Of a stretch of DNA of 64,000 bases, positions 12,926-55,207 are shown piece after piece; position 1 is the stretch's first letter; each line of letters opens with the position of its first letter. The stretch lies in NCBI GenBank assembly GCA_012295275.1, contig CM022677.1, positions 12,710,001-12,774,000 of the forward strand, in the 5' to 3' direction. A program made the translations under genes and the position numbers. Source of the stretch: Chrysomallon squamiferum (taxonomy: Eukaryota > Animalia > Mollusca). Below the pieces are notes generated by a model. The model was not told the origin of the DNA. It worked only from the letters and a program-made list of their open reading frames with translations, and searched no databases.

Positions 12926-14792
12926 ATGTATGTTGTGAAGACCGTTCTACTTTTAGCGTTCTGCAGATTATGTCTGGGCAACATTCACCCATTACCAGCC
13001 TCCGAGGTTCGAGATAAACACCGGATACATTTTCGATCAAACGCTTTGTCAAAGAAGGTAGTGTTTTTAACAGGCTACGAAATCATTAATTTTTACTTCT
13101 GTCTGAAGAAAACAAGCTCGGTAAAAATCTCCAGTTTACGATACTCCAATGGCAACGATCCTGAAAACATCACAGCAGTTTTAAACCAGAAGAAAATGGG
13201 ATCCATTGTCACCATATCACCAGAAACAGCCGGAGATAAGTGGAATGTTTTTCATTTCAGTACCGAGATGAAAGGATCAGTAATTCTGGAAAGAGGTTGG
13301 TATATTTTAAAGCTCCAGGTTCACGGATCTGATGGAGTGGAACTGAACACAGTCAGTCTAGATATTGATGACAGCAGTCTCGCGCAGGACATGATGCAGT
13401 GTAAACTTCACTGTACGAGTGATCTGCCCCATCTGAACTCTTCGACACGCAATTAATGTCGACAAAAAAGCTAAACTTAGACAGAAAAGTTACCAATCTA
13501 AATGTGCGGAAGAGGACAATGTGAAAATACCAGTATACCTCGACAGCGTGAAACAGTACAAACTAATAGCTACTCTACCAGTGTATAAAGCTTTTGTAAA
13601 CAGAAGAGAACCAAATAATACTGACTGTGTTGCTTTGTCTCCTCTCTACTGGAGTTTTACCCACCTCTGTTTGAATAAAATAAATAATCATTTAGTTTCA
13701 AATTCGGCAACTATGAAAGTGTATCCAGGACCTAGTACATCGAAAATAGCCGTAATTGAAATTTCATTCATGTTAAAAGGAAGATCAGAAGGTTACATAG
13801 ATGCTGATATTGGGTCAGTCTTCAGTCTAAAAATCAAACCAGTGACCTCATTTGTAAAATTATAGGTTTCATACAGAGACAGAAACTAAAATTTAATTGC
13901 GCTCAAAGAGACTGGTTTACAACCCGGGAAAACTGACGTCGATTGGCAAATCCCAAACCTTTCTTGGATCGAACACAACGTAAATCTGATCAAAATTTCA
14001 TTATCCGCACAGGATGTATTTTCCATTTGTATCGAAGAAATAAAATTGGAAAGAAAACCTATGAAACCTGAAAAATATTTTCCTATATACACCAGTAAGG
14101 AGTTCACTGTTATAGGTGTTGATATAGACTTTTGGTGGAGAAATCCGGAAACAATGAAAGTATATGTAAAAAATACTGACAAGCTTCATAGAAAAGTAGA
14201 CTATTTTAAAATAATTCTTCCAGTTCCTTGGTCAGAGGGTTACAGTGAGACACTTGTTATCTATCAAGATGGAAACGTACGCCTACTGCCCCTCCCTCCT
14301 GCAGGATTAGACTGGATTCCGTTTGGAACATCAGTTGTGGTTGGAACATGCGATGTTGACCTGATCAGACCTGCTGCTCCCATTGATCAAGTGGATATCG
14401 ACGTCGATAAACGAGAGCTGAAGATTCTTTACAGAAATGGAGAAAAAGCAAAGCTGACGTTGATTTCGAAAGTGGACAGAACGGAACTCGTTGTTTCTGA
14501 TCTCATATTTAAACAGTCCAGTAAGGGATTTCCATTTGCCACATTCCGATCAATGTACGTCGACGAGGGCAACACAGACAGCGACAGCATCATGGTGGAC
14601 AGCTCCAGCGTGTTCGGCGTCATGGAGAACCTGAATGGTGTACATGGAAAAACGTTTACACTTTTCAGAAGATGCGAATCCAAACATCTGACTCTCAGTC
14701 CGGATATCCATCTGGAGTTATTGCGCACGCGCTACTCAGTATTGTTGTCAGGTAATCAGTCAGTTTTAAATAACATGACAGTTCACATGTAA
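12926..14792 (+). pseudogene. Intronless ~620-codon secreted-protein gene, disrupted; N-terminal beta-sandwich possibly carbohydrate-binding-module-like
   Basis: Signal-peptide-like start MYVVKTVLLLAFCRLCLG. ORFs 12926-13456, 13521-13865 and 14046-14792 join through one frameshift near 13440 and two in-frame stops (13863, 13887). Protein-like composition throughout; the domain call is inference from the LRYSNG..WNVF..LERGWYILKL pattern. Confidence 0.7.
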
Positions 14793-20886: not shown

Positions 20887-21644
20887 AAAAATAAAAAAAT
20901 AAATAAATATTTATTTCACTGAAGGCAAAACTGAGAGAGCCGCCGCATTTTAAACTGTAGAAAGAAAAAAGAGTCATATGGGACTGTTGTAATACATATA
21001 TATATATATATATAGATCAGATTATTTTGAGAAAATAAATCAACCGATTTCGTGTATAATGGAACACATTAATCTTTCTGAAAAGTAAATTTCATGAAAA
21101 ATATTTAAAAAAATATATAAAAGTGCGCATGTCCTCCATGCCATGTGATGATGTGTTCAGGTTACGTGACGACAGCAACCTCGAGGACTGTTAATAGGAA
21201 CCTGAATGTTCGGGAAACACAGCGGCGAAACGTGGATGTTACGTTTTCATGTTCGTAAATATCTTCATCAACTCCATACCAAAAAGTATTAAAATGTCAT
21301 ATTGTATCGGGATACATCCTTCCCGAATCGATGTATCGTATCGGGGCCTTTGTATCACAATACGATTCTGTATCGTAGTAATCGTTACAGCTCTGGTGCA
21401 TACATATTTCTGTGTGTGTGCGTGTGTGCGTGTCTGTGTGTCTGTGAGCGCGCGTGTTTTTGTGCGTGCGTGCTTTGAAGTAGATGGTCAAACAGGCACA
21501 GAAGTATCTAAAAAATATTAATTAATATTTATATGCCTTTGTTTCTTCGTTTGTCCTCCGTTTTAAATATTTTATTTGTGAAATCAGATCTAGCGATTTA
21601 TCCAGGACTAGTTTATGTTGTAGTTGTTGTTAGTATCGTTGCTG

Positions 21645-21872
21645 TTTTAACTCGAAGGTGACTAGCTCCTTCGGGCGTAGCCCGAGCCCTACGGTCATAA
21701 GTTAAAAGTACATATTGGCTTTTAAGGCCAAAAACCAAAAACCATTCGTGTTATACATTGTTTTTTCAATAATAAACAAGAGTTGGGTTGGGATCTATCA
21801 TGTCCCTAATTCACACCCACGTGGTCTATTGCGTTATAGTCACGTGATCTCTCGCGCTATAGTACGACTGTT
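21645..21872. repeat. EVE1 left terminus: terminal hairpin (21645-21707) plus ITR (21701-21872)
   Basis: ttttaac-[49-nt GC-rich branched palindrome]-gttaaaa. 21701-21872 is the reverse complement of 24592-24763 with one mismatch and contains two CACGTG boxes. Confidence 0.95.
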
Positions 21873-21953
21873 TTACTAAGTTAATAGGATCTATACGTTA
21901 TAACACGTTTATATATTTAATACAGATAACAACGATATATTAAATTTTAAAAT

Positions 21954-21959
21954 TTTATT
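21954..21959 (-). terminator. Polyadenylation signal for the EVE1 capsid gene
   Basis: AATAAA on the minus strand about 45 nt after the VP stop codon. Confidence 0.55.
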
Positions 21960-22002
21960 TAACTTATGATAACATATTTACATAATATTAATGTTTAACA
22001 AA

Positions 22003-24123
22003 TTAAATTGGATAAGACCAATCAAAAGCATTTCCCATGGTTTCGACTGTTCTATCTCCATAGGCACCGTGTAACGGCCATAACTGTCTACGTCTATTTC
22101 TACGTTTGTTCCAATTGTCCCATACGGGAGCAAAGCATCTCATTTTCCATGTTTTCTGAATTCTTTCTTTGTATTTAGCTTCTTCTTCACCTAGAAACTG
22201 ATCTTGCTCAGTATGCTTAATGTTATCTTTGTTACCCATAGGCGTTGTTTCATTTTTCTTATATATCAGTCCTTGCATGTTACCTGGACAACCTCCTAAA
22301 CCTATTGGAATGTACTTAGGATACATTCCAGTTCTAACGACAAATTCGATCTCACTGTAATAAGTGATCTGAATGTTTGCATGATAATTAAAATACAATG
22401 TACTTCCACCACTTGTTTTCTCGACATCTGGATATAATCCAATTAGAAATATAGGTGGTCTGTTACATTGATACGTACGCCTATGAGAACCATCTTTACA
22501 TACGTCTACGTTAGGATTATTAGCATTGTTATGCATGACACCTTGATTACTTAATTTAGTGCCACCATCATCTACCATAGATGGTGCACCAAGTACATTA
22601 GATGCTTTATTCTGAAAACACGCTGTATAATGTATACGTCTATATTGATGATTGAAATAACAACATATCGCTGTACCCATTGGATGCTGTGTAGTATTAG
22701 TAACTATAATATCATGTGTTGGCCAGACTTCTAGATTACCTTTGTTTTCATTAGCACATTGATACTTAGATTTCTGACATAAACCAGAAATGTCTGTGAA
22801 ATTGAGAGTATGAGATGTTTCTGATGGAAATAAGATTAACGGTGAATCCTTGCACGTATAATCTAATGCAAAACCGCCAGCACTAATAACAGTTTCACGA
22901 TAACCATCGTGTTTTTTCATATCGTATATGTAATTTGGAGAAAGAGCTGTATATTCTACTCCGTCACCTGTCCAAGCATGATTTAACATTTGCATTGCCA
23001 TATCACTTGGTAAATACAATTTTCTATCAGGTTGAACAGGGATACTTCTATTGCTTACATCGTCCATACAGTCTTCGTCTTTAAAATAATAATTATGAGA
23101 CAACATTAAATTTTTTTCTGGTAACCCATAATCGTTATTTATATCGGTAAACGTCCAAACACGAGCGTTTGGTGGTGCCATAACAGGTACTTCGTTAGGA
23201 TCTGCTTTGTTATTATTTAAAACGTGAATAAGCATATTATTTATATTGAAACCTATTCTTTTGATTCTGTATCCCATGAAATCATCAGGTAAATTCCAAT
23301 CTTCTGGTTTAGTACTGGCGGCTTTGTACCAATATGGTATAATATGTCCTCCGTGATTAAACGTAAATTCGCATACATTAGGATCACCTATAGCTTTTTT
23401 CCAATTAACATTATCTGAATTATTGTCTAATACCTTCATTTCAGCTTTTCTATTTTTGGTAAAATTAATAGTACTTGTAAATGTTCGTTTAAATGTCTTT
23501 TTAATCGTAATGTATCTAGGATCCGTTCCTTTGGTAGTTCCACCAAAACCTTGATATAGAACATTATTACCAGTAGTCGATGCCATTGGAGCACCTTCGA
23601 CAGCTTCGCTCCCTCCGGTGTCTGTGACTTCTTCATTTGCAATGGAATCAGGTTCCATAACAGATTCTTCTGGTTGTAAATATGTACCTCTGGAATTCGA
23701 TTGTTCCAATACATCTTGCGAAACTACGTTGGATAACTGTGTGTTATTAGATCTTTTAGCAGAGCTACCACCGTACGGTTCATCAGATGGTCTCTTCATA
23801 GCTTGTTTATCACTATATCCGGACGAGAATTGCTGATCTCTTTGTCGTTGTACATCATTTGCGAGTATAGCGGGGTCTTTAACGTCGTCTTCGTCCGAAT
23901 CTTCAATAGCGTTATAGTTTTGCCAAAGATTTTGAATTGCCTGATAGAAATTTCTATTCGGAACTTGTATATTTGGATACTGACGTCTGACCTGTAACCA
24001 TTGTTGCTGTCTTTCTCTATAGGGGACATTTTGATCAGCTAGCTTGTCGAACAACGTAGCTTTAGCAGCAGCCCAAAGTCTATTTATAGCCTTTCTGCTT
24101 AATAATTGTTTTCCTTTAATCAT
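22003..24123 (-). CDS. VP: Parvovirus/densovirus-like capsid protein, 706 aa, intact
   Basis: Uninterrupted intronless ORF inside ITRs. A low-complexity G/S/T-rich region precedes jelly-roll-like strands (YITIKKTFKRTF, GHIIPYW, YRIKRIGFNI, PPIFLIGL, YHANIQITYYSEIEF). The C-terminal 200 aa align with the ORF next to NS1 in EVE2. No PLA2 HDxxY motif seen. Confidence 0.85.
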   Translation of the reverse strand: MIKGKQLLSRKAINRLWAAAKATLFDKLADQNVPYRERQQQWLQVRRQYPNIQVPNRNFYQAIQNLWQNYNAIEDSDEDDVKDPAILANDVQRQRDQQFSSGYSDKQAMKRPSDEPYGGSSAKRSNNTQLSNVVSQDVLEQSNSRGTYLQPEESVMEPDSIANEEVTDTGGSEAVEGAPMASTTGNNVLYQGFGGTTKGTDPRYITIKKTFKRTFTSTINFTKNRKAEMKVLDNNSDNVNWKKAIGDPNVCEFTFNHGGHIIPYWYKAASTKPEDWNLPDDFMGYRIKRIGFNINNMLIHVLNNNKADPNEVPVMAPPNARVWTFTDINNDYGLPEKNLMLSHNYYFKDEDCMDDVSNRSIPVQPDRKLYLPSDMAMQMLNHAWTGDGVEYTALSPNYIYDMKKHDGYRETVISAGGFALDYTCKDSPLILFPSETSHTLNFTDISGLCQKSKYQCANENKGNLEVWPTHDIIVTNTTQHPMGTAICCYFNHQYRRIHYTACFQNKASNVLGAPSMVDDGGTKLSNQGVMHNNANNPNVDVCKDGSHRRTYQCNRPPIFLIGLYPDVEKTSGGSTLYFNYHANIQITYYSEIEFVVRTGMYPKYIPIGLGGCPGNMQGLIYKKNETTPMGNKDNIKHTEQDQFLGEEEAKYKERIQKTWKMRCFAPVWDNWNKRRNRRRQLWPLHGAYGDRTVETMGNAFDWSYPI

Positions 24124-24132
24124 GAACTCTGA

Positions 24133-24489
24133 TTATGTCTGTTTAAATATGTAACGTTTTTCTCCTTCCTCTTCTTCTAACAAATGACGTTCGGCTGGTG
24201 TAACGTTTTTGTCAATGTCTTTACCAGTATCGGTTGATACGAATTCATCAAATTGATTCAAAGCTTCTTCTATTTGATTCTTTGTATAAGTAGAAATTCC
24301 TTCCACTGAAGCTTCTACAATAGATTGACCAATAGCTGTAGCTGGTTCTAATATGGCACTTTCTGCACCAATCAATTCAGATATGGCAGGAGCTGTAGAT
24401 TCTAATATAGCGTTTGTAGCTAAACCAACTGATGCATCAAATGCGTACTCTATTATCTCTGTAGCTATAATGCCTAACGCAGTGAACAT
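24133..24489 (-). CDS. 118-aa acidic, amphipathic viral ORF upstream of VP (candidate minor capsid or VP1-unique module)
   Basis: ATG about 60 nt after the TATA box; intact; stops 9 nt before the VP ATG and is in the same reading frame. Confidence 0.75.
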   Translation of the reverse strand: MFTALGIIATEIIEYAFDASVGLATNAILESTAPAISELIGAESAILEPATAIGQSIVEASVEGISTYTKNQIEEALNQFDEFVSTDTGKDIDKNVTPAERHLLEEEEGEKRYIFKQT

Positions 24490-24551
24490 GCTATCTCATC
24501 GAACGTTTATGATGGAATGATGTTAATATTTGAAAACATAACGATATCTGC

Positions 24552-24573
24552 ATTTATACCGGATATGACATCA
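24552..24573 (-). promoter_or_regulatory. EVE1 structural-gene promoter (CRE-like TGATGTCA + GGTATAAAT)
   Basis: Motifs lie just inside the ITR; same layout as TGACGTCA..GGTATAAAT upstream of NS1 in EVE2. Confidence 0.65.
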
Positions 24574-24591
24574 TATACTATATTTAAATAT

Positions 24592-24788
24592 AACAGTCGT
24601 ACTATAGCGCGAGAGATCACGTGACTATAACGCAATAGACCACGTGGGTGTGAATTAGGGACATGATAGATCCCAACCCAACTCTTGTTTATTATTGAAA
24701 AAACAATGTATAACACGAATGGTTTTTGGTTTTTGGCCTTGAAAGCCAATATGTACTTTTAACCCGAAGGTGACTAGCTCCTTCGGGC
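24592..24788. repeat. EVE1 right ITR plus half hairpin in the alternative (flop) orientation
   Basis: 24592-24763 is an inverted copy of 21701-21872. 24764-24788 (ccgaaggtgactagctccttcgggc) is a direct, not inverted, copy of 21652-21676. Confidence 0.95.
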
Positions 24789-25007
24789 ACCGGATGTATC
24801 GAAAAAGTCATTAAGTATGTTTAAAATATCGGCATCATTATCGTGAATCTCTTTTTCCATCTCATTCCAGATATTAAGCATGGCTTGATCTGTTGTTCCT
24901 AAAAATTGTTTTTCTGAATCATTCATCAAATATTTCATATAGTCTTGAAGTGATGTTCTTTGTGGGTCTTTAAGTTTCATGATTTTCAAATATTGTGTAT
25001 ATTTTAT
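24789..25007 (-). pseudogene. NS1: Internal fragment of a parvoviral NS1 (HUH motif III region)
   Basis: QYLKIMKLKDPQRTSLQDYMKYLMNDSEKQFLGTTDQAMLNIW aligns with EVE2 NS1 GYIKLRKLRQPYKYSVSEFMNYLIRDDEKMFLGTNCPDMLNKW. Confidence 0.85.
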
Positions 25008-27690
25008 CCAAAGTTGAATGTTTGGGTTTGTGTTATGACGTTGTTGTTAATGTTTAGTGTGATTTTGTTGTTATCTGTTTTTTTGTTGAAAAGGAGGCAT
25101 GTCGTTTTGGAAAGAGAAATCTTTGTGCCCCATTTTAACGCCCAGTTGTTTATGTTGTTTAAGTCTTTTTGTATTGTTTCTGCCTGCACACCAAAAAGTG
25201 CAGTCGTCTGCAAAGAGTGCTGTGTTTTTTCGTTCGGTTGGTGGATTGTTGGTGTTGTCTTGTTTGTCAAGTGCTGTGATGATGTCGTTGATGTAGATGT
25301 TGCAGAGTGTGGGCGAGATAACGGATCCTTGTGGGATGCCATTTTCGATTGTCATTTTCTCTGAGGTGTGACCATTTACTTTGACTGCTATGGATCTGTT
25401 GTTGATGAAGTCTTTGATAAACTTGAACATGTTGCCTTTGATGTTGTTGTTGGTTAATTTGATGAGCAGTCCTTCCCTCCATACCATGTCAAAGGCTTTT
25501 TCAATGTCTAGGAATACTGTGATGACTTTTTTTTCCTAAAAGATAGGTTGATTATTGTTTGCAGACAGGTGATCTGGTTGTTTGTACTGTGTTTCTTCTT
25601 GAAGCTGCTTTGATATTTGCTGATTAAATTGTTGTTGTTTAGATGCTGGCTCAGGTGTGATTGATCATCATTTCCAGTGTTTTGCACATGTGTGACGTCA
25701 GTGTGATCGGCCTGTAGCTGTTGGGTAGTAAGTGATCTTTGTGTGGTTTGGGCCAAGCTGAAACATTCGGCATATTTCCAGTTTGTTGTAATCTTACCTG
25801 TTGTCCATATTGTGTTGTAGAGATCGAGTAAGATTAGTAGTGTTTCATCTGGTAGGTGTTGTAGTATTGTGTAGCTTATTTTATCTGGCCCTGTGGCTGT
25901 ACTTTTCTTGTTTTTGAGGGCATGATTTAATTCGCTGATGTTGAAGAGTTGATTGTATTTCAAGTGTTCTGTGTCTGAGAAATGTTTGTTGATTGTTAGG
26001 TTGTCCAGTGGTTTCTTTGTGAATTTCAGTAGGAAGGTTGAGTTGCTGCTGGACTTGGTGAAAGTTTTACTGAGTAGATCTGCTTTTTGTTTGTCAGTGA
26101 ATGCGATGTTGTTTTTGTCGAGAGTGTTGATTCTGTGGTTTTTATTTGCCTTGGATGTCTTTCACTTTGGCCCACATGTCTTTGACTGATGTTTTGTGGT
26201 CGATGTTGTTGCAAAAGAGTTCCCAGTGTTCTTGTTTTGCACTGAGAATTAGATTGGAAACTTGTTTTTTTGCTATTTTGTATTTTTGTCTGTGGAATGA
26301 TTTCTGTCTTTTTTGTATTGTCTTCTGAATTTGTTTCTTTCTTTGCATTTCTTTTCTATGTGTTCCATCCACCAGGGAGTGGATATTTTGTCGGTGCATT
26401 GTCTGGTTTTGGGTATGAATTTGTTTGCAGTGGAGTATATTGTGCTGGTGAGTGATGTGCAGTAGGTGTTGATGTGGTTGGGGTTTATGTGGTGATGTTT
26501 CTGCATGCTTTGTAGAAGCCTTCCCAGTTCGCTTTGTTGAAGTTCCATTTGGATGTGAAAATGGATCTGTCCAAGAAAGTGTTCTTGCAGTTGGTGAGTA
26601 TTGGGTGATGGTCGCTGTTTAATTCATTGAGCACTTGCCATTCACAGAGCACTGTGATGTCCTTACTTTGTGGATGTTAGATCAATGGCGGATTGGCTAC
26701 TATTGATGTCACTGGTGTATGTGAATGTTCCGTCGTTCAAACAGACCAGCTGGTTTTGCTCTATGAAATTTTCAAGGATGATTCCAAGACTGTCGTCTGT
26801 CGAGCCACCCTATAAGGTGTTGTGACAGTTGAAATCACCCACTATAAAGAGCTTGTTGTTTGTTGTGATCATTTTGTTTAAGTCGTGGGTTTGAATGGTG
26901 TGTAGTGCGGGAATGGATGGGCTGTACATTTTAATTGTGTTGATGTTTTGATTGTTATTGTGTACTGTGATGCTTAGTATTTCTATGTTGGTGTGAACTT
27001 TGGCTTGGTTCAGCTTGGTGTGTGGAATGTCTTGTTTGACGAGTGTCATGATGTCTCCCCGGGTGCTGAGACTTTGATACCCGGGGACCTTAAAAGCTTT
27101 TGTTGTTTTGTTGTTTTTATTGTGTCCTAGCCATGTTTCTTGTATATGCATATTACGTCTGGTGTGTTTTGAGTGGAGGCCAGGAAGTGTACGAGTTTGT
27201 CTCTGTGGCCTGCTGAGTTGTTGTTACTGTTTGGTGTTTCTTTTGTTCATTGCTGTTTTGTGTTTGTGGGATTTCTCTTGTCTGTGTGTAATTTAAGTCT
27301 TTGTTGACTGTGGAGATCTTGAAGCCCAAGCTGTCTTCGATTATTGAAGTCGTCTGTGATGTTTTCTTGGTTGTTTCTGATGTTGTGCAGTTCGATGAGG
27401 AGGAAGACAATAATTTTGTGTATTTCTGCAATTCTGACCTCCTTTGTTCGATTTTGGGGCATTTTTTGTTAACGTTTCGTAGAATTTTGTTTTCTCATCT
27501 GTTGTAATATTTGATGGACACATTTTGTAATGTGGTGTGTGTGGACCCTGGCAATTCGCGCACTTTGCCAGAGAACAGCATTGGCCTGAGTTTCTGTGGT
27601 GATTTCCACTGCAGACAGTGTCTGCACTTGGGCAACTGCGGCCTCATTTCTGTGAGCGTCTCTGTACCCATCAATGGTGATGGTTGTGTT
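25008..27690 (-). mobile_element. Degenerate I-group LINE (ORF1 zinc knuckle, APE endonuclease, RT), 3'-truncated at the viral junction
   Basis: ORF1 knuckle KCANCQGPHTPHYKMCP (~27515-27570); APE motifs IQETWL and FIVGDFNCHN; RT motifs GPDKISYTILQHL, DIEKAFDMVWREGL, GIPQGSVISPTL and LFADD; many frameshifts. Confidence 0.93.
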
Positions 27691-27894
27691 TGTTAATTAC
27701 CTTCTAAATGTCAGCTTGGTCCAGTAGCTTGGATTTTTCCATATTTCCACACCGAATAATTTAGCTTTTGTTTGTTGTATTACTTCTTTGTTGAACATCT
27801 CAAAGAAATCATGCTTGTATACATACAGGTAATAAAACCCAAATCTTTGGAGACGTATTTGTGAAATGTTGTTTCTTTGTTTTTGTTGACTGGG

Positions 27895-28240
27895 TTACTG
27901 TTGTTGTGTAATGAGTATTTGTTTGGGTTGTTGTTGTTGTGTAATGAGTGTTTGTTTTGGCTACTGTTGTTGTGTAATGAGTGTTTGTTTTGGCTGCTGT
28001 TGTTGAGTAATGAGTGTTTGTTTTGGCTGCTGTTGTTGTGTAATGAGTATTTGTTTGGGTTGCTGTTGTTGTGTAATGAGTGATTGTTTTGGCTGCTGTT
28101 GTTGAGTAATGAGTGTTTGTTTGGGTTGCTGTTGTTGTGTAATGAGTGTTTGTTTTGGCTGTTGTTGTTGTGTAATGAGTGTGTGTTTTGGTTGCTGTTG
28201 TTGTCTAATGAGTGTTTGTTTTGGCTGCTGTTGTGTGAGC
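27895..28240. repeat. 33-bp minisatellite, about 10 copies
   Basis: Unit tgtaatgagtgtttgttttggctgctgttgttg. Confidence 0.95.
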
Positions 28241-29589
28241 AGTGTTTTCCTGGATTGTGGTGTGGGTGTTTTCTTTGTTTGTTGTCAACAGAGGAAAACC
28301 CTGACAGTAAATACTTCATCCCAGATAGTTATGCTGGGACCTATAGCTTTTAATGATTTTTTATCTATTTCGAAATATATTTGTTTTCCAGTTTGATTTT
28401 TGTTCATTTTAGTTATTTTGTAGATGATGTGTATTTGCGCTTCTAATAAATATCGATGTCTGTGGGGTTTTTTGTGAATCGCGATGGTGACTCGGTGTTC
28501 AATACGTTTTATTTTTTTCCTTTTTATTGTTTCCCAAATGTATCATAATATTATTTTAGATGTCATAATATGCAACAGTTTTTGCAGCCAGAAAATAACA
28601 AATGATCCCAAATAAATCCTTTTTTTACAAAACGATTTAAATCAAGATTGATTAAAAACAAATTACCAGATAATTTTCATTTTTATTATTATGTGTGTGT
28701 GTGTGTGTGTTTGCTATCTTCTGTCTTCTTGTTTCTTCTTTTCTTCTTGTTTTTTCTTATTCCTGTGTTTATTTATATTTGTTTTAATTTTTGTGTTTTC
28801 TTTAAAGTTATTTTTTTGTTTATTTTTTTTATCCTATTTACCATGATTATTGTTGCTTCTTTTCTTTTACATTGCAATTTCTTCAAAATCTTCCTTTTCT
28901 TCTTGTGTGTACCTCTTGTCTGTGTTGATTTTCGGTTATTTTATTCATAAGCAAGATTTTTGTAATATACAATTTACTTACTATTTTTTTTTTTTCTATA
29001 TTTTTTCTTTCCACAGAACTGACATGGGTTTCACATCAATGAAAAAGAAACAGCAGTCAGCACCAAAAACACCAGTACCACCATTAGACCTGAGACAAAC
29101 TGACATCACCACACCAACCACTGAAAACTCAAACTCCTGTCCAAGAAACATCCAGACACACTAGAAAAGAAACCAGAAACACCACCACCCATTCCTGAGG
29201 TATTTCAGTAAAAATAATGTCTAAGAAAGAAAGTGAACAAACTGCTGAAACAATTCTGACAAAAGAAAAGAAATTAGTTTCAAAACTTTCTTTCAGTAAG
29301 GGTGACAGCGTGGAAGATATGCATCCACACACACAGAACAAGTTTGATCATTTTTGTTGAAAGCAGCCAGACCAAGACTTAAACTGACACAAGCTTTACA
29401 ACTTAGTCACTTAGTCAGATGTTAAAAACTTAAAAAAATATTCAGGTGAACATGTCTGTAAATATGTCTTAGTCTATCTGTCTGTTTCTCTCTCTGTCTG
29501 CCTCCCTATTTATTTATTTTATTTTTATGTCTGCTTTTCTGTTTGTGTGTATTTCTTTCCTTGAAAATGTTCAGATAAATATGTTTGTC

Positions 29590-30659: not shown

Positions 30660-33600
30660 AGATAATTACTACTAGACAGATAATAGTGAATGTGTGTGTA
30701 TATCAGCAATAGTGATAATTACTTCTACACAGGTAATGTGTGTGTGTGTGTTTGTGTGAGTGTGTGTTTCAGCAATAATTGCTACTACTCTGTTAATAGT
30801 GTGTGTGTGTGAGTGTGTGTGTGTTTCAGCAATTGTGATAATTGCTACTACTCTGATAATAGTGTGTGTGTGTGTGTGTGTGTGTGTATCAGCAATAGTG
30901 TTAATTCCTACTACTAAGATAAAATAGTCTGTGTTTATGAGTGAATCAGGAATAATGTAATTGCTACTCAGATAATAGTGTGTGTGTGTGTGTGTGTCTG
31001 TTTCAGTGAATCAGCAATAGTGTGTGAGTGAATCAGCTACTCAGATAATACTACTAATGATACAATAGTGTGTTTGTGAGTGAGTGTGTGTATATCAGCA
31101 ATAGTGATAATTGCTACTAATGATACAATAGTATGTTTGTGAGTGAGTGTGTATCAGCAATAGTGAAAGTTGCTACTACAGAGACAATTGTGTGTGAGTG
31201 AGTGTGTGTGTCAGAAATAGTGTTAATTGCTACTACTCTCATAATAGTGATAATTCCTACTCAGATAAAGTGTGTGTGTGTGTGTGTGTGTGTGTGTCTA
31301 AATAGTGATAATTGCTATTCAGATAATGAGAATGTGTGAGTGAATCAGCAGTACTGATAATTGCTACTCAGATGAGTGAATGTGTGAGTGTATCAGCAAC
31401 AGTGGTTATTACTACTCTTGTAATAGTGAGTGTGTGTTTCAGCAATAATTGCTACTACTCTGATAATAATGTGTGTGAGAGTGAGTGTGTGTTTCAGCAG
31501 TAATGATAATTGCTACTACTCAGCTAAAAGTGTGTGTGAGTGAGTATCAGAAATAGTGATAATTGCTTATAATAGTGTGTATGTGTGAGAGTTAGTGTAT
31601 CAGTAATAGTGAGTGTGTGTATCAGCAATAGTGTTAATTGCTACTACTGATAATAGTGTGTGTGTGTGAGTGAGTGAGTGTATCAGCAATAGTGATAATT
31701 GCTACTACTCTGATAATAGTGTGTGTGTGAGTGAATCTGCAATAGTGATAATTGCTACTCAGAAATTAGTATGTGTGTATCAGCAATAGTGATAATTGCT
31801 ACTACTCAGACAATAGTGTGTGTGTGAGTGTGTATCAGCAATAGTGAGTGATAATTGCTTCTACTCAGATAATCTGTGTGTGAGTGAATGAGCAATAGTG
31901 ATAATTGCTACTCAGAAAGTAGTTTGTGTGTATCAGCAATAGTGATAATTCCTACTACTCAGATAATAGTGCATGTGTATAAGTGAGTGTGTGTGTATCA
32001 GCAATAGTGTTAATTTCTACTCAGATAATGTGAATCTGTGATGAATCAGCAATAATGATAATTGCTACTCAGATAATGTGAATGTGTGAGTGAATCAGCA
32101 ATAGTGATAATAGCTACTCAGATAATAAATAATGGGTATGTGCGTGTGTGTGTGTGTGAGAGTGAGTGTCAGTGTATCAGCAGTAGTGATACTTTCTACT
32201 CAGATAATGGTGTGTATGTGTGAATGAGTTTGATTGTATCAGTGATACTGATAATTGCTACTCTGATAATGTGTGAATGTGTGAGTATATCAGCAATAGT
32301 GTGTGAGTGAGTGAATCAGCAATAGTGATTATTGCTACTCAGGTAATGGTGTGTATGTGTGAGTGAGTTTGAGTTCATGAGCCATAGTTATAATTGCTAC
32401 TACTCAGATGCTAATGTGTGTATATTAGCAATGGAGATAATTACTACTACTCAGATAATAGGTGTGTGTGTGAGTGTGTGTATCAACAATAGTGATAAGT
32501 GCTACTCAGATAATAGTATGTTTGTGAGTATGAGTGTATCAGTAATAGTGATAATTGCTACTACTCAGATAATGTGTGTGTCAGCAATAGTCATAATTGA
32601 TTGTCAGATAATTTGTGTGTGAGTGAATCAGCAATAGCGATACTTTCTACTTAGATAATGTGTTTATGTGTGAGTGAATCAGCAATAGTGATAACTGACA
32701 CTCAGGCAATGTGTGTGTGTTAATTGCGACTACTGTCATAAAAATGTGAAATGGTGATAATTCCTACTCAGGTAATAATGTGTTTGTGTGTGTATATCAT
32801 CAATAGTGATAATTGCTACTCCGATAATGAGAATGTGTGAGTGAATCAGCAATAGTGATAATTGCTACTCAGATAATAGTGTGAGTAAGTGAGTGTGTGT
32901 ATCAGCAATAATGATAATTGTTACTACTCTGATAATAGTGTGTGTGTGTGTGTGTGAGTGAGTGTATCAGCAATAGTTATAATTGCTACTACTCTGATAT
33001 TAGTGAGTGTGTATGTGTGAGTGAGTGTGTGTTTCAGAAATAATTACTACTCTGATAATTGTGTGTGTGTATGAGTGAATGAGTGTATCAGCAATAGTGA
33101 TAATTGCTACTACTCAGATAATAGTGTGTGTATGTGTGTGAGCGAGTGTGTTTGTATCAGCAATAGTGTAAATTGTTAATGTGTGCATGTGCGTGTTTGG
33201 TGTCATCCCATCTTGTCAAATCCCATTTTGCCAAAATTAATACAGAAATAACAACGTGACCCTACCTCGCTGCTGAATGGGTTAATCCAACGTGGTAAAT
33301 GTATTATTTGTTGTGAGTCTTGTGTGATCATTTATTTCTTGAAAATCTGTTAATGCTCCTTTGTTTCACAAATTATTTTTTTTAGGTTATTAATCAATCT
33401 TCTCTGTCAGTTAAAAACAGTCAAATCTTGTGCCTATGTTTTTTGGAAAATTGGTTAATCTTCCTTTGTTTTACATAGTTTTCTTTAACCTGTTGATCAA
33501 ATTTTCCTTGGCTTGTTTAACATTTTAAGTTGCATCCCGTGATGTTCTCCTCTTGCCCTGGTTTGTGTAACACGTTTTACATTGTGCATGGATTCTTTGT

Positions 33601-34220
33601 TTCCCTCTCGTGTTTGTGTCGTTGCCAGGTTCCATTCAAGGCTCAACAGAGCTCTTCCAAACCAGCACCCCAACATCTACAAGTTTGTAGACCTCATCAT
33701 CTCAAGAGACAGTTGTAAGCTGGAGCCAAGACACCTCTCCAGTACCTCCATGTAGTTGTACACCTTGTGAAACTTGAACTTCGTGTATCTGAACACAGTG
33801 TCCCTGTATATAGTGCTTGAACTCTGAATAATACTATCTCTGAACATAGTGCTTGAATATTAAATACACAAATACACAAATTCAACTTGTTTTGTTACTC
33901 CTCTGTGGCCGGTACATGGGATTTGATAGGATGGGATGACACTCAACCCTGTGGCCTAGTCCACTGTCTTATTTGAGTACCGTGAATGGGATTAGTGATT
34001 TATTTATGACTTCCACAAGATGGAATAGAACCATGTGTTTGTGTGTGAGAGAGCGTGTGTATCAGCAATAGTGATTATTGCTACTCAGGTAATGTGTTTG
34101 TGTGTGGGGGTGAATGTGAGTTTATGAGCAAAAGTTATCATTGCTACTCAGATAATAGTGTGTGTGTGAGTGAGTGTGTATCAGCAATAGTGATAACTTC
34201 TACTCTGATAATGTATGTGG
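30660..34220. repeat. Compound satellite (~50-65-bp units with variable GT tract), interrupted at ~33190-34030
   Basis: Dozens of copies of atcagcaatagtgataattgctactactcagataatag(tg)n. Confidence 0.95.
33200..33942 (+). mobile_element. Non-autonomous MULE-like DNA transposon inserted in the satellite
   Basis: 27-bp TIRs (gtgtcatcccatcttgtcaaatcccat / atgggatttgataggatgggatgacac, 2 mismatches); internal remnant FHSRLNRALPNQHPNIYKFVDLI..KTPLQYL resembles MULE transposase C-termini. Confidence 0.75.
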
Positions 34221-34519
34221 GTGTATGTTAAGAAGTATTTGGTTATCAGTTTACATTCAAATGCTGTGTACAAAATTATCAGGCCTGTTTTATTTAAATT
34301 TAAGATTCAGACAGATGGTAAGCTTGACATAATAAATTATTTTTATATTTTTCAGTTAAAAAAATACTAATTTTTATAAAATTAAATTATATTTTAATAC
34401 AAAATAATCAGCACCAAAAATATCAGCAGCAATATGTAATGTGGTGGTGATAGTAGCAACTATGATGTTGTAATAGTAGCACCAGCATCAGCAGTAGTAA
34501 TAAATAAATAAATAAATAG

Positions 34520-36302: not shown

Positions 36303-36440
36303 TGTTACATCTACCTAATCCTATTAACTATATATCTATTTACCAGTGTATGTCTACAATAACCTGTCTGTCTGTCTGTTGGTCTACATCATCAACCTAT
36401 CTATCTACCCAATATCTACCAGTCTCTAAATAATGTTACT

Positions 36441-36717
36441 TAATAAATTTATCTATGTACCTCTGTATTCTTTTATTTTACATTTGTCTATTTGTCTAAC
36501 TTTCTGTCTGTCTGTAAGTCTGTGACTTTATGTAATTTAGTCTGTTTGTTTATCTATATATCTATCTATGTCTATATATATATATATATTAATAAATTTA
36601 TCTATGTACCTCTGTATTCTTTTATTTTACATTTGTCTATTTGTCTAACTTTCTGTCTGTCTGTAAGTCTGTGACTTTATGTAATTTAGTCTGTTTGTTT
36701 ATCTATATATCTATCTA

Positions 36718-36753
<36 letters not shown>

Positions 36754-37215: not shown

Positions 37216-37818
37216 AATGCTGCAGGTGAAGAATTGGGTGCACCTGCTATGGCAAGTGATCCTTCGAATAAACTTGCTAAAAAAGGAGTAACTGCAATTG
37301 ACATTAGTTCTCAGAATTATAATACAGAAATGGATGGTTCTCATAGAAGAACTTATCAATGTAACAGACCACCTATGTTTCTCATTGGTATATACGCAGA
37401 CGTAGAAAAGACTAGTAGTGGCAACACCTTATTTTTTAATTATCATGCTAATCTACAGATTACATATTGCAGTGAAGTAGAGTTCATAGTAAGAACAGGA
37501 TTCTGTCCTAAGTATATTGCTATAGGACTAGGTGGTTGTCCAGGTCCCATGTGAGGTCTGTATATGTATGGTAAGGATGTAGCCGGAAATAAAGATGTCG
37601 TTAAACATACTGAACAAGATCAATTCTTAAGTGAAAATTCACAACAATATGTCGAACGAATACGTAAAACATGGGAAATGAGAATTGCTGCTCCTATATG
37701 GGACAATTCGAATCGAAGAAAGTCGAGGCGACGAGTTGTCTGGCCATTACATGGAACATACGGAGACAGAACGGTTCCAATTAAAGAAAACGAAACCGAT
37801 TATTCTTATCCTATTTAA
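37216..37818 (+). pseudogene. VP: Capsid protein C-terminal ~200 codons, one in-frame stop
   Basis: Shares DGSHRRTYQCNRPP, FNYHANxQITY, IGLGGCPG, KHTEQDQFL, WPLHGxYGDRTV and SYPI* with the EVE1 VP; TGA at 37552-37554. Confidence 0.9.
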
Positions 37819-37964
37819 ATAATTATTCATTGTTCATATTAGTTAGTTAATTACTTATCGTTAATTACTATTTTAAAAGAACTATTTGTTATTACGCTGT
37901 GTAAGAACACAGTGAAAAGTCTGTTGTGTTATAGATCTCGTAACATTTCGTTACCTCATATCAA

Positions 37965-37994
37965 TGACGTCATGTAAATATTGGTATAAATAAA
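37965..37994 (+). promoter_or_regulatory. NS promoter (TGACGTCA + GGTATAAAT) overlapping an AATAAA
   Basis: CRE palindrome at 37965-37972, TATA at 37985-37990, AATAAA at 37989-37994; ATG in a good context (cactATG) at 38080. Confidence 0.65.
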
Positions 37995-38079
37995 GCTGAC
38001 GTTCAAAAATATTTTTGTCGTTTGTCATTAATTGACTTGCTACACGTTAAAAGAAGCATAGTTATAATCCAGCACCACT

Positions 38080-40214
38080 ATGCAGAAATATATTGAAGAC
38101 GCTACTAATACTTTTGAATATTACTCAATTATATTGGGACATAAAGAGTACGACTTGGTGCATCCCAACTATCTGGTTCCAAGATGCCTTGCGAAAGATA
38201 GGAACGGAAAATATGTTTACGCCACGGGAAAGAATTATATCAAGAGTTTCGTCATGGACCACCAAGACATTCTAGACAAGTGCGTGGACCATTGGTCGAC
38301 TCCGCAATCGGAGTTCATGATGAGAGGTCAGGATAGAGTGATAACTGAACTTAAAAACATGTTAAGGAATAGAAACTGGAAGATGCTGTTAGTGTACCAC
38401 GATAAATAGTGTGATATTGACTCCAACATACCTACAAATGGAAGTCATGTCCATATCATATGGAAAACAACCATGACACATCCAAGTCAAGATCGTCAAT
38501 ACAGACGTTTACACCGAGCTGTTCTGGCTGAAAAAGGGTATATAAAGTTAAGGAAGTTACGTCAGCCATACAAATACTCTGTATCTGAATTCATGAACTA
38601 CTTAATAAGAGATGACGAGAAAATGTTTTTAGGAACAAATTGTCCGGACATGCTCAATAAATGGATTCTATTACTGGATCAAGAACAAAACTGGCTAATA
38701 GACGATTATAATGAAAATACTGTATTCGAAGACACGTCTATCAACGAAGATATAAAGACATTTGAAGTTAAGCCTCCCAAGAAAAAAATGACGGTTCAGG
38801 AATTTTTAAATGAACACAATGACGTGTTACAACATGGACAAGGAATGACAGTAAAGGAGATAAATCAAGAAACAAAGAACATTATAGACATTGATGATGA
38901 TATTCCAACTAACAAGCCTGAAAAGATTCCAAGTCACCTCATGTCTACCAAATCAGCAGACACATTTGACTTTTTTTTACAAATTGGTTCAAAAGTATCC
39001 AGATGTGAATAAACTCAATATGCTCATAAGCAAATTTGATACATCGAGCAATGAATTTAAAGCTCTTTGTAATACTGTTGCCAACATATCTGGAGAAAAA
39101 ATATTTAAAGCAGCAAGAACCAAATACCTAATGGAACAAGCAGATAAAAGTGCCTACGATCAGATAAAAGCTCTCGACGATACCTAGAAAATTATATGAC
39201 ATCAGAAGATTCTTTGAAACTATTTAACAGTTGGTGCCAGGAACAAGAGATACCAGAGCGATGGTTCTATGTACTAATGAATACCCTTTTGAAAGGCAAA
39301 GGCAAAAAGAAAATTGGAATCTATTTACAAGGCGAGAGCGATTCCGGCAAGACAATGTTGTCGTCGAGTTTGTTTGAACCTTTGACATGTTCCGGTAAAA
39401 TAGCGAAAGACAATTTTCCATGGCAGATGCTGGGTGACAAAAAATTGTTATTGGAGAAGAAATCGCTATTACCCAAGTAAACAGAGACAAATACAAAGAT
39501 CTTCTCAGTGGCAGTAAGGCAACATGCGAGCGAAAGGGAACGACACCGGTGTATTGCAAAGCAAGCTTATGTATTTTAAACAGCAACATTCCTTTTGGAC
39601 AGAACATTACATCAACTCAAATGAGTATTATGAAAACTAGATTGTACTTCATCGAGCACTTGAAGAAAAGCAATACACTAAAACGAGCTAAATTATTCAC
39701 CTTGTGCGAAGATCCATCCGAAGACGAAATAATGGTTGCGATTGAAAACGATAAACAATTCTTTAACGATAAACTCAATCCACTACAAAATGACAAGACA
39801 ATTCAAGCTAAGTATAGTTACTTCCATGACTCTTTTGACAACGAATCACAAGAATCACGTGGAGTAAAGAGGCAATATGATAACATCGAAGCCTATATAG
39901 AAAATGAAGAGAAAGATCTCAATCAGAATGAAGACATCATCAATGAATCTCCAAAGAAGAAACGAAAAATTCTGAAAGCAAAACGATCAGACTGTGATAC
40001 GATAAGTGGTAACACGTCAGATGAACATTCTCAAGATCTGTTTATAGCATCTGAAGATGACAACAACCCTGCTGATAATACAGTTCCAGAAGCGTATATG
40101 AATAATAACCAAGCTTTGGAATTGATATCGAAGACATTATTCCGCCATCGCAAATTAATTATAAAGTGTTTGACATTTTTCGTTCCTATAAATGATATCA
40201 TTGGTGCTGTTTAA
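38080..40214 (+). pseudogene. NS1: Parvoviral NS1 replicase (HUH endonuclease + SF3 helicase), ~710 codons, disrupted
   Basis: Reading through TAG 38407 gives GSHVHIIW (HUH, 38446-38454); motif III NYLIRDDEK; Walker A GESDSGKT (39331-39354); Walker B IGEE after a frameshift near 39440; B' KDLLSG..ERK; motif C CILNSN; NLS PKKKRK (39951-39968). Frameshifts at ~38975, ~39180 and ~39440. Confidence 0.93.
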
Positions 40215-40387: not shown

Positions 40388-40560
40388 ACTCTTGTTATTG
40401 TAAAAAAACAACAAAGTTTAACTCATATTGGCTTTTGGCTTTTTGGCTTTTTAACCAAATGTACTTTTAACTTATGATCCTTCGGGTTTTGGCTTCGCCC
40501 GAAGGAACATTATCACCTTCGGGTTAAAAGTACATTTGTTAAAAAGCCAATAACAAGAGT
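40388..40560. repeat. EVE2 terminal hairpin 1
   Basis: Stem ttggctttttaaccaaatgtacttttaac / gttaaaagtacatttgttaaaaagccaa around a 51-nt branched core homologous to the EVE1 core; outer actcttgtta/taacaagagt also pair. Confidence 0.92.
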
Positions 40561-40564
40561 TTAG

Positions 40565-40759
40565 TTGTCAACCTAACTCTTATGATTTGCAAAGATCCTC
40601 ATTACTGGCTTTTGGCTTTTTGACCAAATGTACTTTAACGTATGCTCCTTCGGGCGAAGCCTAAGCACCTTCGGGTTAAAAGTACTTTTGGTCAAAAAGC
40701 CAAAAGCCAGTAATGAAGATCTTTGTTTTTTTTACAAATCACAAGAGTTAGGTTGACAA
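40565..40759. repeat. EVE2 terminal hairpin 2 (variant), ~75-bp arms
   Basis: Long imperfect palindrome around the 35-nt core gtatgctccttcgggcgaagcctaagcaccttcgg; a third partial arm lies at 40845-40890. Confidence 0.92.
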
Positions 40760-43629
40760 TATATCACGTCTTGTCTTTCACTCCCCCCACCCTATATACT
40801 TTTATTTTTATATTTTGAGATGACGTTATGTCACGTGACTATGCACTTTCGGGTGTTAAAGTACATTTGGTCAAAAAGCCAAAAGCCAGTCTGTTCAACT
40901 CTGTTATTTAAATAGGTCAACTGATTCCATTTTATGTTTTAACGATGTTTTATAGGGTACATTTTTACCAGAATTCTTGGTATTTATTTATTTTAAGTTT
41001 TGATTAGATTATTAAGTACAGTATTCTTTCAAAACAAAATTATTTAAAAATATAAAATTAAATTTAAAAAAAAAAGTATCTCCCTTAAACCAAACATTTT
41101 TTAATACGAAGTCTGTACTTTTATTTTAAATCAGTAATAAAGGATTTCTGACACTAAATCATTTTAAAAAAGTAACTTGTTTTATCACAGACTTGCCTGT
41201 ACTTGGTGCTGTGTCTGGTCCAAACATTCAGAATACTGAGTATATCTGATCACATCTTTCATGAACAACACTGTAACTTTGAATCTAAATTCAGTATCAC
41301 AATATTATAAATTCTTCAATAAGAACAGTCCATGATTCAAACAAGTAATGTTTTTAAAATGTTATTTTATCCAGTTATTCAGTTCTTTATATTTACTGTG
41401 GAGATGTTTTATCTTCTGTTTACTTAGTTCAGTACAGTCAGAAAACCTGAAGAACTTGGAGGCAAACTTGTCAAGTCATTTAGATTCAGTAGACATCAGT
41501 TCTTGTTAATAGCTTTCTGTGGTGACTGAAATATAAAATATTACATTCAAACATTTTAACAAGACCCACTATAATTTTATATTTTATCATTTGAATCTGA
41601 AGAAATGTTTTCAACCAATAATAAGTACAGTTAATTTAACTGAAATAAAATAAAGTTTAATTATATTTATTTAAACAGTCTTGTTGGACCTCTATTTTTC
41701 ATTGTATATATATATTTTCGTTCTTAAAGCAGTAACTTCCATTTTACTTTTAATTAAGTACATAAATTAATATATTTTATAAAAATTGACAACAAGTAAG
41801 ATCAGTAATATTTATGTGTTAATTTTTGAAGATACATTTTCTAAAGTACAGTCCTTTTCTCCCAACTGCTGTATCAATGTCATGTCTTTGCATCTACAGA
41901 TACCATTATTTAAAAAAAGAAAATTATATATAATAATAATATTAAAATATTCTCATATGGCATTAAATGATTTATATTTTACAGTTTATAAAGTCTAGTT
42001 GTAAACTGAATTACCTGTCCATTATACTCAACATTTGATTACAAAACATTGACCTAATAAATAAAATTGATTTACTGAAAAACTATAACATTTATCATTG
42101 GAAAGGATAGCAAATTATTATTTAAAAGTTACCTGATGTATTAAAAATTACAAATTATTTAGTCATAATAAATACATTTTACATCTTATATCATTATTAA
42201 GATACCTCTTGAAAATTATCTGCTTGTATGTTATTTTTTTTAAAATACAGAAGTATATAATTTTTAGTGTTCGTAACCAGCAAGTTTCTTCAGTTTTGTG
42301 TCAAACTTTATAATTAACAAGATTGTTCACCATAAATAAACAAAATAATATTTTGGATGTCTTTTTTTCTTGGATTTTAATAATAAAGAGTTCACTTTGC
42401 TTTTATCTTTTTTATTTATTTATTTTTTTATTTCAAAAACATAGGATGTTGTATATAAGATTTTTGTTAATAATACCTTTTCTGTTTTACTTATTTTCTT
42501 TTATAGTATTAGTTTAATTATATCTTTGAAACCTATAAAAAACAGCAGTTTCAAACCTTTGGTCTGTAGAGAACATTCTGCTCAGACAACATGGGGACAA
42601 TGTGAGAATTCTGTCACGTGAACTGACGTGATCAACATCGTGGACAACATGGACTGCAGTGGAAGTTCAGTCATCTGTAAATATAACATAGAAGTATATT
42701 AAAACTTATAACATACATATATATGATTAATAGTTTGTTAAATTTTTAATATACTAGTATTTGAATTGATAAATGTTTTAAAATCAACTAGTTTTAATAA
42801 ATAAGAATCTGAAATGATCCCAGAGCTCACTCTATCCTTGAAACATTACCGTTTCCCATTCCACACTGAGCTCCATTAATAATCTGTCTTGTATTGTGTC
42901 TGTGCCAGGTCTTAAACCACCATTAATTTCTACAGATTTTGGAATAATGTTTTAAAGAAATGAACAGTTTTATAAATTGTTAAATTCTAAATGAAAATTA
43001 GGATTATGTGATATCAGGTTTTAATTTTTTGGTCTTTTTTTTAAACATTTACAGTGTTTAAAGTTAAATTCTGTTAATTTACATATAATAAAAATAATAA
43101 TAAATAAATAATTAGTAAAATAATAGGTCTGTTTCAATAGCTGTTATATCGAGGAGAAACGTGATTTATGAATTTTTTTTAGCTGCTTTTCCTAATTATT
43201 TTCTTTCCTTATTTTATTTTCTAGTCAAATTGGTTATCAAGTATTTTATTTCACAGTGGTTAATCACTGGAATAAAGTGAGAGAGAAAACTGTAAACTAT
43301 GAATTAAACTGACTGCTGTGTTTTCAGTATGATTATCAAACACTTCTCACTAGTCAATGTGTAAGTCAGTGTATGAAGTGTGGGTAGGCACAGAATCAAA
43401 TCACATTAGTGCTTAAAACCGGACTGTTTCTGGCACCATTATAAAAGAAAGTGAAATGTGTCTTCCTGTCCATGTGTGCACACATAATTAAACATTTCAG
43501 ACAGAAAATCCTTGAATCTAGAAAATACAACAGATTTAGATAATTAAACCATTCAACAAAATCTGCAAATATTTCTGTTTTTCAGGTCAAAAGGATATTT
43601 TCTAAGTCATTCTAAGACAGTATTTATTA

Positions 43630-55205: not shown

Positions 55206-55207
55206 AG

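What the first reader, a model, noticed from the sequence alone, without database searches (positions are those of the whole stretch)
21645..24788. Capsid-only parvoviral unit with its own ITRs at both ends: candidate segment of an undescribed bipartite parvovirus
Seen: a ~3.1-kb unit ITR-promoter-ORF118-VP706-polyA-ITR with no NS gene inside, both ORFs intact, ITRs 171/172 identical, and promoter and polyA signal placed just inside the ITRs. In EVE2 the 3' end of NS1 abuts a homologous terminus. Known: Parvoviridae are normally monopartite with NS and VP on one molecule; Acheta domesticus segmented densovirus is the bipartite exception I know of. Inference: EVE1 is a complete structural segment of a segmented parvovirus (or a helper-dependent capsid satellite) from a non-insect invertebrate.
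Basis: partly seen in the sequence, partly recalled or inferred. Interest (0 to 1): 0.92.

Follow-up and report, generated by a model that had tools for sequence, protein, structure and literature searches.

The report
Capsid-only unit of unconventional parvovirus
An animal genome carries an intact, hairpin-ended parvovirus capsid cassette with no replication gene; a neighbouring copy has the capsid gene ahead of the replication gene on one stretch, so the unit is likely a cut-down offshoot of an unnamed capsid-first virus, though a two-segment virus remains nearly as likely.

Summary
A 3,144-bp unit carries intact ORF118 and VP706 between 172-bp ITRs (171/172 identical), with hairpins in alternative orientations and no NS gene. 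First, the neighbouring element EVE2 is not NS-only: a capsid-gene remnant runs into NS1 on the same strand across a 261-bp spacer without hairpin, and NS1 ends at a homologous terminus. Second, a ~200-bp NS1 piece abuts EVE1's right hairpin. The host holds many diverged copies. Relatives carry VP and NS1 on apparently the same contigs, and the NS1 belongs to an unnamed clade. No NS-only ITR unit was found and no related locus could be fetched. Best reading (0.45): an NS-less subgenomic derivative of a one-piece parvovirus with reversed, capsid-first gene order. A bipartite virus stays close (0.37): shared promoter core, two terminus types, and NS1 more diverged than VP in related arrays. Either arrangement departs from the standard Parvoviridae layout. 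Host taxon untested.

The parts
21645..21708 (.). EVE1 left terminal hairpin (branched, outer end truncated)
   Evidence: DNA fold -12.9 kcal/mol
21701..21872 (.). EVE1 left ITR, 172 bp; two CACGTG boxes in its inner half
21954..21959 (-). AATAAA in the 130-nt VP 3' UTR
   Evidence: motif only
22003..24123 (-). VP706, intact capsid gene; no PLA2 HDxxY motif
24133..24489 (-). ORF118, acidic, Ala/Ile-rich; present in diverged copies of the host; function unassigned (inferred minor capsid or entry protein)
   Evidence: Pfam and Atlas gave nothing usable
24552..24574 (-). CRE-like plus TATA promoter core
24592..24763 (.). EVE1 right ITR, 172 bp
24764..24788 (.). EVE1 right hairpin, one arm only, in the alternative orientation
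   Evidence: 31 of 32 direct vs 13 of 32 inverted
24790..25016 (-). NS1 fragment (nuclease region) fused to EVE1's right hairpin; 45% to P0021, 48% to EVE2's NS1
   Evidence: tblastn E 4e-9
25000..28400 (-). decayed LINE cut off just after its RT domain by the insertion
   Evidence: PF00078 E 2e-14
21500..21644 (-). multi-copy left flank, possibly the LINE's 3' end (inferred, weak)
   Evidence: high summed depth; translation resembles by eye the end of another LINE near 55200-56000, but no BLAST hit
37216..37818 (+). EVE2 capsid gene remnant (C-terminal 203 codons, one in-frame stop), starting at a 200-N gap; 62% aa to VP706
37819..38079 (+). EVE2 spacer without hairpin; promoter core at 37964-37991
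38080..40214 (+). EVE2 NS1, broken by a stop near 38408 and frame changes near 38970, 39185 and 39440
40390..40560 (.). EVE2 terminus T1 (opened-out hairpin); shares only the outer ~90 nt with EVE1's ITR
40567..40890 (.). EVE2 terminus T2 (190-bp palindrome running on into an inner ITR part with CACGTG) and a further partial arm

Best explanation
EVE1 is an integrated, hairpin-ended parvoviral capsid cassette without a replication gene, and is likely a subgenomic (NS1-deleted or copy-back) derivative of a one-piece parvovirus whose capsid cassette precedes NS1. Shown: the ITR-bounded VP-only unit; flip/flop hairpin ends; a related element in which VP, a hairpin-free spacer with a promoter core, NS1 and a homologous terminus follow each other on one strand; an NS1 scrap fused to EVE1's hairpin; insertion against a truncated LINE. 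Inferred: the parent genome was ITR-ORF118-VP-NS1-ITR (about 5.7-6 kb). Rolling-hairpin replication lost the NS1 cassette, the short genome was amplified by NS1 supplied in trans, and it entered the germ line as a rearranged concatemer by end-joining, removing part of a LINE.
For: In EVE2, hairpin DNA lies behind NS1 and in front of a further left-end-type ITR (T2), but none lies between VP and NS1. That asymmetry is what head-to-tail copies of a VP-NS1 genome would give. Of 4 ENA contig lengths that carry VP relatives, 3 also carry NS1 relatives (8,418; 60,905; 297,455 bp), in similar numbers (matched by length only). Of 13 distant NS1 relatives looked up (10 clusters of the 37 hits at E<1e-30), 8 sit on 5.5-7.2-kb contigs with room for a capsid cassette. 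An NS1 piece precedes EVE1's promoter-side hairpin on the same strand. Middle-deletion and snapback genomes, including capsid-side ones, occur naturally in AAV (PMC8235507, abstract and section 3.1).
Against: The capsid-first order rests on one decayed copy whose left part is hidden by an N gap; whether other copies join VP to NS1 was not determined. A review states that all parvoviruses have NS on the left (PMC11357303 section 1.1.1), and a search found no parvovirus with reversed order. The deletion would have to be clean, leaving two intact ORFs, a UTR and matched ITRs. EVE1's VP promoter core resembles EVE2's NS1 promoter core (9-43 of 2000 shuffles reach the score), and EVE1's VP 3' UTR is closer to EVE2's NS 3' UTR (28-64 of 2000) than to its VP 3' UTR (100-212 of 2000). 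T1 and T2 are different termini. In the ENA set NS1 types are 76-87% identical while VP cores are 91-99.8%. The closest outside NS1 (P0028, 680 aa) is on a 2,601-bp contig with no room for VP.
Confidence: 0.45

Rival explanations
1. Bipartite parvovirus: EVE1 is a complete capsid segment. NS1 travels on a second ITR-bounded segment of about 2.8 kb that shares the hairpin and outer terminus but has its own inner ITR. EVE2 is a VP segment and an NS segment joined in a concatemer whose junction palindrome was lost.
For: Clean, self-contained VP unit with 171/172 ITRs and flip/flop ends. NS1 ends in polyA-like signals plus a terminus exactly as VP does. The promoter core occurs twice in the 64-kb window, before ORF118 and before NS1 (pattern chosen after seeing both) and aligns above shuffles. 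There are two terminus types: T2 has EVE1's inner CACGTG part (2 of 500 shuffles), T1 lacks it (500 of 500). NS1 types are more diverged than VPs in the ENA arrays, as reassortment would give. 5 of 13 NS1 relatives are on contigs of 2.6-4.1 kb. Precedent: AdSDV, whose two segments share their termini (PMC10267136).
Against: No NS-only unit with termini on both sides was seen. The VP-NS1 spacer in EVE2 holds no hairpin, while the other junctions keep theirs. The leader alone is not significantly similar (435-810 of 2000). Short Logan contigs may be fragments or transcripts. The VP identity range comes from one 90% cluster, although a search of 303-1236-aa proteins found no second cluster. Summed size of about 5.9 kb would fit one capsid (largest known about 6.4 kb, PMC13426907).
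Confidence: 0.37
2. Ordinary gene order (NS1 then ORF118-VP) in a one-piece virus. EVE1 lost NS1 and put ORF118 under the NS promoter; EVE2 is a head-to-tail junction with lost ITRs plus a second deletion behind NS1.
For: It explains the shared promoter core directly. In run X7 a ~90% relative aligns over ORF118 and stops aligning at 24487, next to its start codon (record 27). It needs no new genome plan.
Against: It needs three separate rearrangements, two of them reciprocal clean deletions in two viruses only 62% alike in VP. NS1 in EVE2 is followed by an AT-rich UTR with polyA-like signals, not by ORF118.
Confidence: 0.12
3. Capsid gene kept by the host, or a stand-alone capsid satellite unrelated to the NS1-bearing elements.
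For: Both ORFs are intact and the unit is held by 6 runs from 3 studies.
Against: Near-identical ITRs suggest a young insertion. One sample of the same organism label shows only a ~90% relative over ORF118. The termini are homologous to those of the NS1-bearing EVE2.
Confidence: 0.04

Closest known systems
Acheta domesticus segmented densovirus (AdSDV; PMC10267136, abstract and sections 7, 13 read)
   Same: A ~3.1-3.3-kb hairpin-ended unit with a capsid cassette and no NS gene; termini homologous to those beside NS1.
   Different: AdSDV termini are not ITRs, its VP is 378 aa and Brevihamaparvovirus-like, it carries a PLA2 ORF, and both segments were cloned from virions. Here: 172-bp ITRs, a 706-aa VP, no PLA2 motif, an unnamed NS1 clade, and no NS-only segment shown.
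AAV subgenomic particles: genome-deletion mutants and 3' snapback genomes (PMC8235507, abstract and section 3.1 read)
   Same: ITR-bearing genomes that lack rep and keep capsid sequence; they depend on a full genome.
   Different: EVE1 is not self-complementary beyond its ITRs, keeps a whole expression cassette, and is in a germ line; the putative parent has reversed gene order.
Homotelomeric invertebrate parvoviruses and their EVEs (PMC13426907 passages and sections 1, 4.2; PMC5013282 passages)
   Same: ITRs with hairpins, HUH plus SF3 NS1 (PF01057), a capsid most like parvoviral capsids, multi-copy EVEs.
   Different: VP has no Pfam match above cut-off and only one 90% cluster of relatives among 5.8 billion; each cassette's 3' end faces a terminus, fitting neither the monosense NS-VP nor the ambisense plan.
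Bidnaviridae (passages in PMC13426907, PMC10267136, PMC10880892)
   Same: Bipartite linear ssDNA with parvovirus-like capsid; segment-specific ITRs with a shared outer part are recalled, not read here.
   Different: Bidnaviruses encode a protein-primed polymerase B. None was noticed in EVE1 or EVE2, whose NS1 has HUH-type motifs and whose ends are hairpins.

Membership tests
Parvoviridae | terminal palindromes folding into hairpins | tested here: met
   flip/flop 31 of 32 vs 13 of 32
Parvoviridae | NS1 with HUH nuclease and SF3 helicase | tested here: met
   Met for EVE2 pieces and relatives, not inside EVE1: PF01057 above cut-off in 27 of 27 proteins scanned; invariant H121, H137, Y188, G430-K431, E467-E468, N508-N510; AAV Rep40 E 1e-13
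Parvoviridae | jelly-roll capsid protein | tested here: inconclusive
   Atlas top hits are parvoviral capsids (0.94, 205 of 256 features). Both AlphaFold models failed (pLDDT 30 and 29); Foldseek on them ranks Parvoviridae capsids first (E 9e-9 and 3e-5) but with TM under 0.2. No Pfam or PDB sequence hit
Parvoviridae | NS and VP cassettes on one 4-6 kb molecule | tested here: inconclusive
   Not met by EVE1 itself; EVE2 has both in tandem but may be a junction
Parvoviridae | NS on the left, VP on the right (monosense or ambisense) | tested here: not met
   EVE2 order is VP, NS1, terminus on one strand; rule as stated in PMC11357303
Parvoviridae | linear ssDNA in a T=1 virion | not testable with these tools
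   only integrated DNA seen
Bipartite parvovirus (AdSDV-like) | VP-only unit with termini at both ends | tested here: met
Bipartite parvovirus (AdSDV-like) | NS-only unit with termini at both ends | tested here: inconclusive
   None in the window; no related locus in IMG/VR, JGI or GTDB scans; no host assembly held
Bipartite parvovirus (AdSDV-like) | termini shared between NS and VP units | tested here: inconclusive
   Hairpin stem and outer ~90 nt are shared between EVE1 and the NS-side terminus of EVE2, but these are different viruses, and a one-piece ITR genome predicts the same
Bipartite parvovirus (AdSDV-like) | segments packaged separately | not testable with these tools
   needs virions
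Named subfamily or genus of Parvoviridae | SF3 helicase placement among named references | not tested
   The tree has only unnamed rows; no named NS1 sequences were available

The most novel reading that the evidence does not exclude
A second, independent origin of a two-segment genome in Parvoviridae, in an unnamed clade far from AdSDV, with ITR-bounded segments that share hairpin, outer terminus and promoter core, carry segment-specific inner ITRs, and reassort NS1 against VP; preserved as a young multi-copy EVE family.
Probability: 0.37. Interest if true: 0.82.

Novelty: new variant of a known kind. Interest (0 to 1): 0.62.

Why it matters
Segmentation has been seen once among parvoviruses (PMC13426907, 2026) and NS-left/VP-right is given as universal. 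The two leading readings, together about 0.8, each break one of these rules: a second bipartite lineage, or a capsid-first genome. The host's many copies make the question answerable from one good assembly. The elements also give a first animal-host link, capsid sequence and terminus for an unnamed NS1 clade of at least 37 clusters at 50% identity.

Tried and rejected
No whole genome is held. Scans for related loci were blank: IMG/VR 6 of 6, JGI metagenomes 2 of 2, GTDB 1 of 1. No RNA holder listed. No contig piece listed spans the unit, and the rows shown do not document the host-ITR junctions. Summed depths there are not copy numbers and were used only qualitatively. AlphaFold failed twice on VP. 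The weak PDB hit of the VP profile to a plant PLA2 (E 0.24) was rejected as noise; VP706 has no HDxxY motif. ORF118: no Pfam hit above cut-off and Atlas scores of 0.81 or less. Homology of the 5' leader alone, and of the two EVE2 3' UTRs to each other, was not significant; a first local alignment of the promoter regions was also not significant (120 of 500). An ambisense parent was rejected because both VP and NS1 3' ends face termini. A chance inverted repeat or MITE was rejected on capsid and NS1 homology. No target-site duplication was evident at EVE1's ends by eye. Earlier-findings look-ups by sequence and place were empty.
Full report
Observation. The unit at 21645-24788 is as described. 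VP706 (22003-24123) and ORF118 (24133-24489) are open on the minus strand. The ITRs at 21701-21872 and 24592-24763 agree at 171 of 172 positions. Beyond them the left end folds into a branched hairpin. The right end carries one arm of the same hairpin in the alternative orientation (31 of 32 direct, 13 of 32 inverted), the pattern expected from rolling-hairpin replication (established knowledge). An earlier scan note on other genomes warns that loop flips can arise by replication slips (e1-5309671, not tested here); here the capsid and NS1 context favours the viral reading. A CRE-like plus TATA core lies 18 nt inside the right ITR and an AATAAA 82 nt inside the left ITR. No NS1 sequence lies between the ITRs.

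Identity of the genes. VP706 has no Pfam or PDB sequence match. It has one cluster of relatives among 5.8 billion proteins (51-55% identical, ENA, 13 members). Language-model features place its core next to parvoviral capsids (0.94). Two AlphaFold runs failed, and Foldseek on those poor models still ranked Parvoviridae capsids first, which is only a lead. There is no PLA2 HDxxY motif. ORF118 has no usable match but is covered by diverged contigs together with the VP start, so it is likely a real viral gene; a role as minor capsid or entry protein is inference.

(a) Directly outside the right hairpin is a ~200-bp piece of NS1 on the same strand as VP (E 4e-9; 45% to P0021, 48% to EVE2's NS1). 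It is fused to a decayed LINE that is cut off after its RT domain. The multi-copy left flank may be that LINE's 3' end (weak). The insertion is therefore LINE, NS1 scrap, hairpin, ITR, ORF118, VP, ITR, hairpin, host. (b) EVE2 begins at a 200-N gap with the last 203 codons of a capsid gene (62% to VP706). A 261-bp spacer without hairpin follows, then an NS1 broken by one stop and three frame changes, then about 175 bp of AT-rich UTR and a terminus homologous to EVE1's. Behind it lie a second, palindromic terminus (T2) and a partial arm. A 20-base hairpin-stem motif occurs exactly three times in the window, once in EVE1 and twice in EVE2 (0 expected). T1, next to NS1, shares only the outer ~90 nt with EVE1's ITR. 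T2 also has the inner CACGTG part (inner half: 500 of 500 shuffles reach the T1 score, 2 of 500 the T2 score).

Presence in public data. Of 10 runs listed, 6 from 3 studies of one coded organism hold 0.59-0.74 of EVE1's words, one holds 0.07 and three hold none; the best holder may be the source sample. Four runs were laid: 271-477 contigs each, 135-263 of them under 90% alike, so the host carries many diverged copies. In X7 only a ~90% relative covers ORF118, which suggests polymorphism. Whether those other copies join VP to NS1 or to an ITR was not determined.

Relatives elsewhere. A helicase piece of EVE2 finds 4 ENA clusters at 72-76%. Order and spacing could not be read. NS1 types there are 76-87% identical over their length (83-96% in the helicase core), while VP cores are 91-99.8% identical; the VP range comes from a single 90% cluster. 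An NS1 profile finds 127 representatives, 37 at E<1e-30. In a quick helicase tree (101 of 136 proteins kept after dropping short pieces; SH-aLRT only; no named references; window pieces not included) the close relatives fall in one 43-row clade with support 100, and P0028 is their sister. All 27 proteins scanned carry PF01057. Of 13 members looked up from 10 clusters, none has a name; 8 lie on 5.5-7.2-kb contigs and 5 on 2.6-4.1-kb contigs, P0028 on 2,601 bp. Nine scans of IMG/VR, JGI and GTDB gave no locus.

Weighing the models. In both elements a gene's 3' end faces a terminus, VP in EVE1 and NS1 in EVE2. That fits neither the ordinary NS-VP order nor an ambisense genome without several rearrangements. 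Two simple models remain, each needing one accident. Capsid-first monopartite: EVE2 is read as it stands and EVE1 is one deletion or copy-back. For it speak the lack of any hairpin between VP and NS1 while hairpins persist behind NS1, the co-occurrence in ENA contigs, and the long contigs of distant relatives. AAV makes middle-deletion and capsid-side snapback genomes (PMC8235507). Bipartite: EVE1 is read as it stands and EVE2 is a junction that lost its palindrome. For it speak the cleanness of EVE1, the similar promoter cores (9-43 of 2000 shuffles; leader alone not significant), the EVE1 VP 3' UTR being closer to the NS 3' UTR (28-64 of 2000) than to the other VP 3' UTR (100-212 of 2000), two terminus types, uneven NS1 and VP divergence, and the short P0028 contig. 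These statistics are modest and the regions were chosen after inspection. I put 0.45 on capsid-first monopartite, 0.37 on bipartite, 0.12 on ordinary order with multiple rearrangements, and 0.04 on a satellite or host-kept gene.

Literature. Read: PMC10267136 (abstract, sections 7 and 13); PMC13426907 (passages, sections 1 and 4.2); PMC11357303 (abstract, section 1.1.1); PMC8235507 (abstract, section 3.1); PMC5013282 and PMC10880892 (passages). Eight searches (listings only unless named above) showed no second bipartite parvovirus, no reversed-order parvovirus and no report of this lineage. The library lacks most subscription papers and no supplements were read; sequence tables of EVE surveys such as PMC5013282 could list these elements.

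Verdict. A real, young, intact capsid-only parvoviral unit from an unnamed lineage. The bipartite claim is open but not the lead; the alternative is itself an unusual genome plan. New variant of a known kind; interest 0.62.

Noticed in passing
relatives P0032/P0155/P0156, P0034, P0035: NS1 proteins of 1,033-1,056 aa sit on Logan contigs of 6.86-7.22 kb, longer than the ~6.4 kb called the largest known parvoviral genome (PMC13426907). They could be oversized genomes or EVEs with flanks.
   Followed up: no
window 21470-25000 in runs X1, X2, X5, X7: 271-477 contigs were laid per run, about half under 90% alike: a large, diverged parvoviral EVE family in organism A. Joints from right to left hairpin point to opened-out ITR junctions in other copies.
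   Followed up: partly
run X7: A sample of the same organism label holds 0.07 of EVE1's words and only a ~90% relative over ORF118; EVE1 may be polymorphic. Contigs cannot prove absence.
   Followed up: partly
window 24157: All four runs show a one-base difference in a homopolymer near the end of ORF118; the window may carry an assembly error or a rare allele.
   Followed up: no
window 55200-56000 (+): A second decayed LINE related to the one at 25000-28400 (72% over 156 nt), with an RNase H-like stretch recognised by eye.
   Followed up: partly
window 12926-14792 (+): ORFs of 176 and 243 aa within a longer coding-like stretch broken by stops; no Pfam hit above cut-off.
   Followed up: no
window 30700-34250 and 36440-36900: A ~60-bp minisatellite array and nested palindromes built on an AT microsatellite lie just left of the gap before EVE2.
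   Followed up: no
P0102: A distant hit fuses an RT fragment to a parvoviral helicase, another likely LINE-parvovirus junction in some other genome.
   Followed up: no
window 27820-28281 (-): A 33-bp tandem repeat inside the LINE's first ORF.
   Followed up: no
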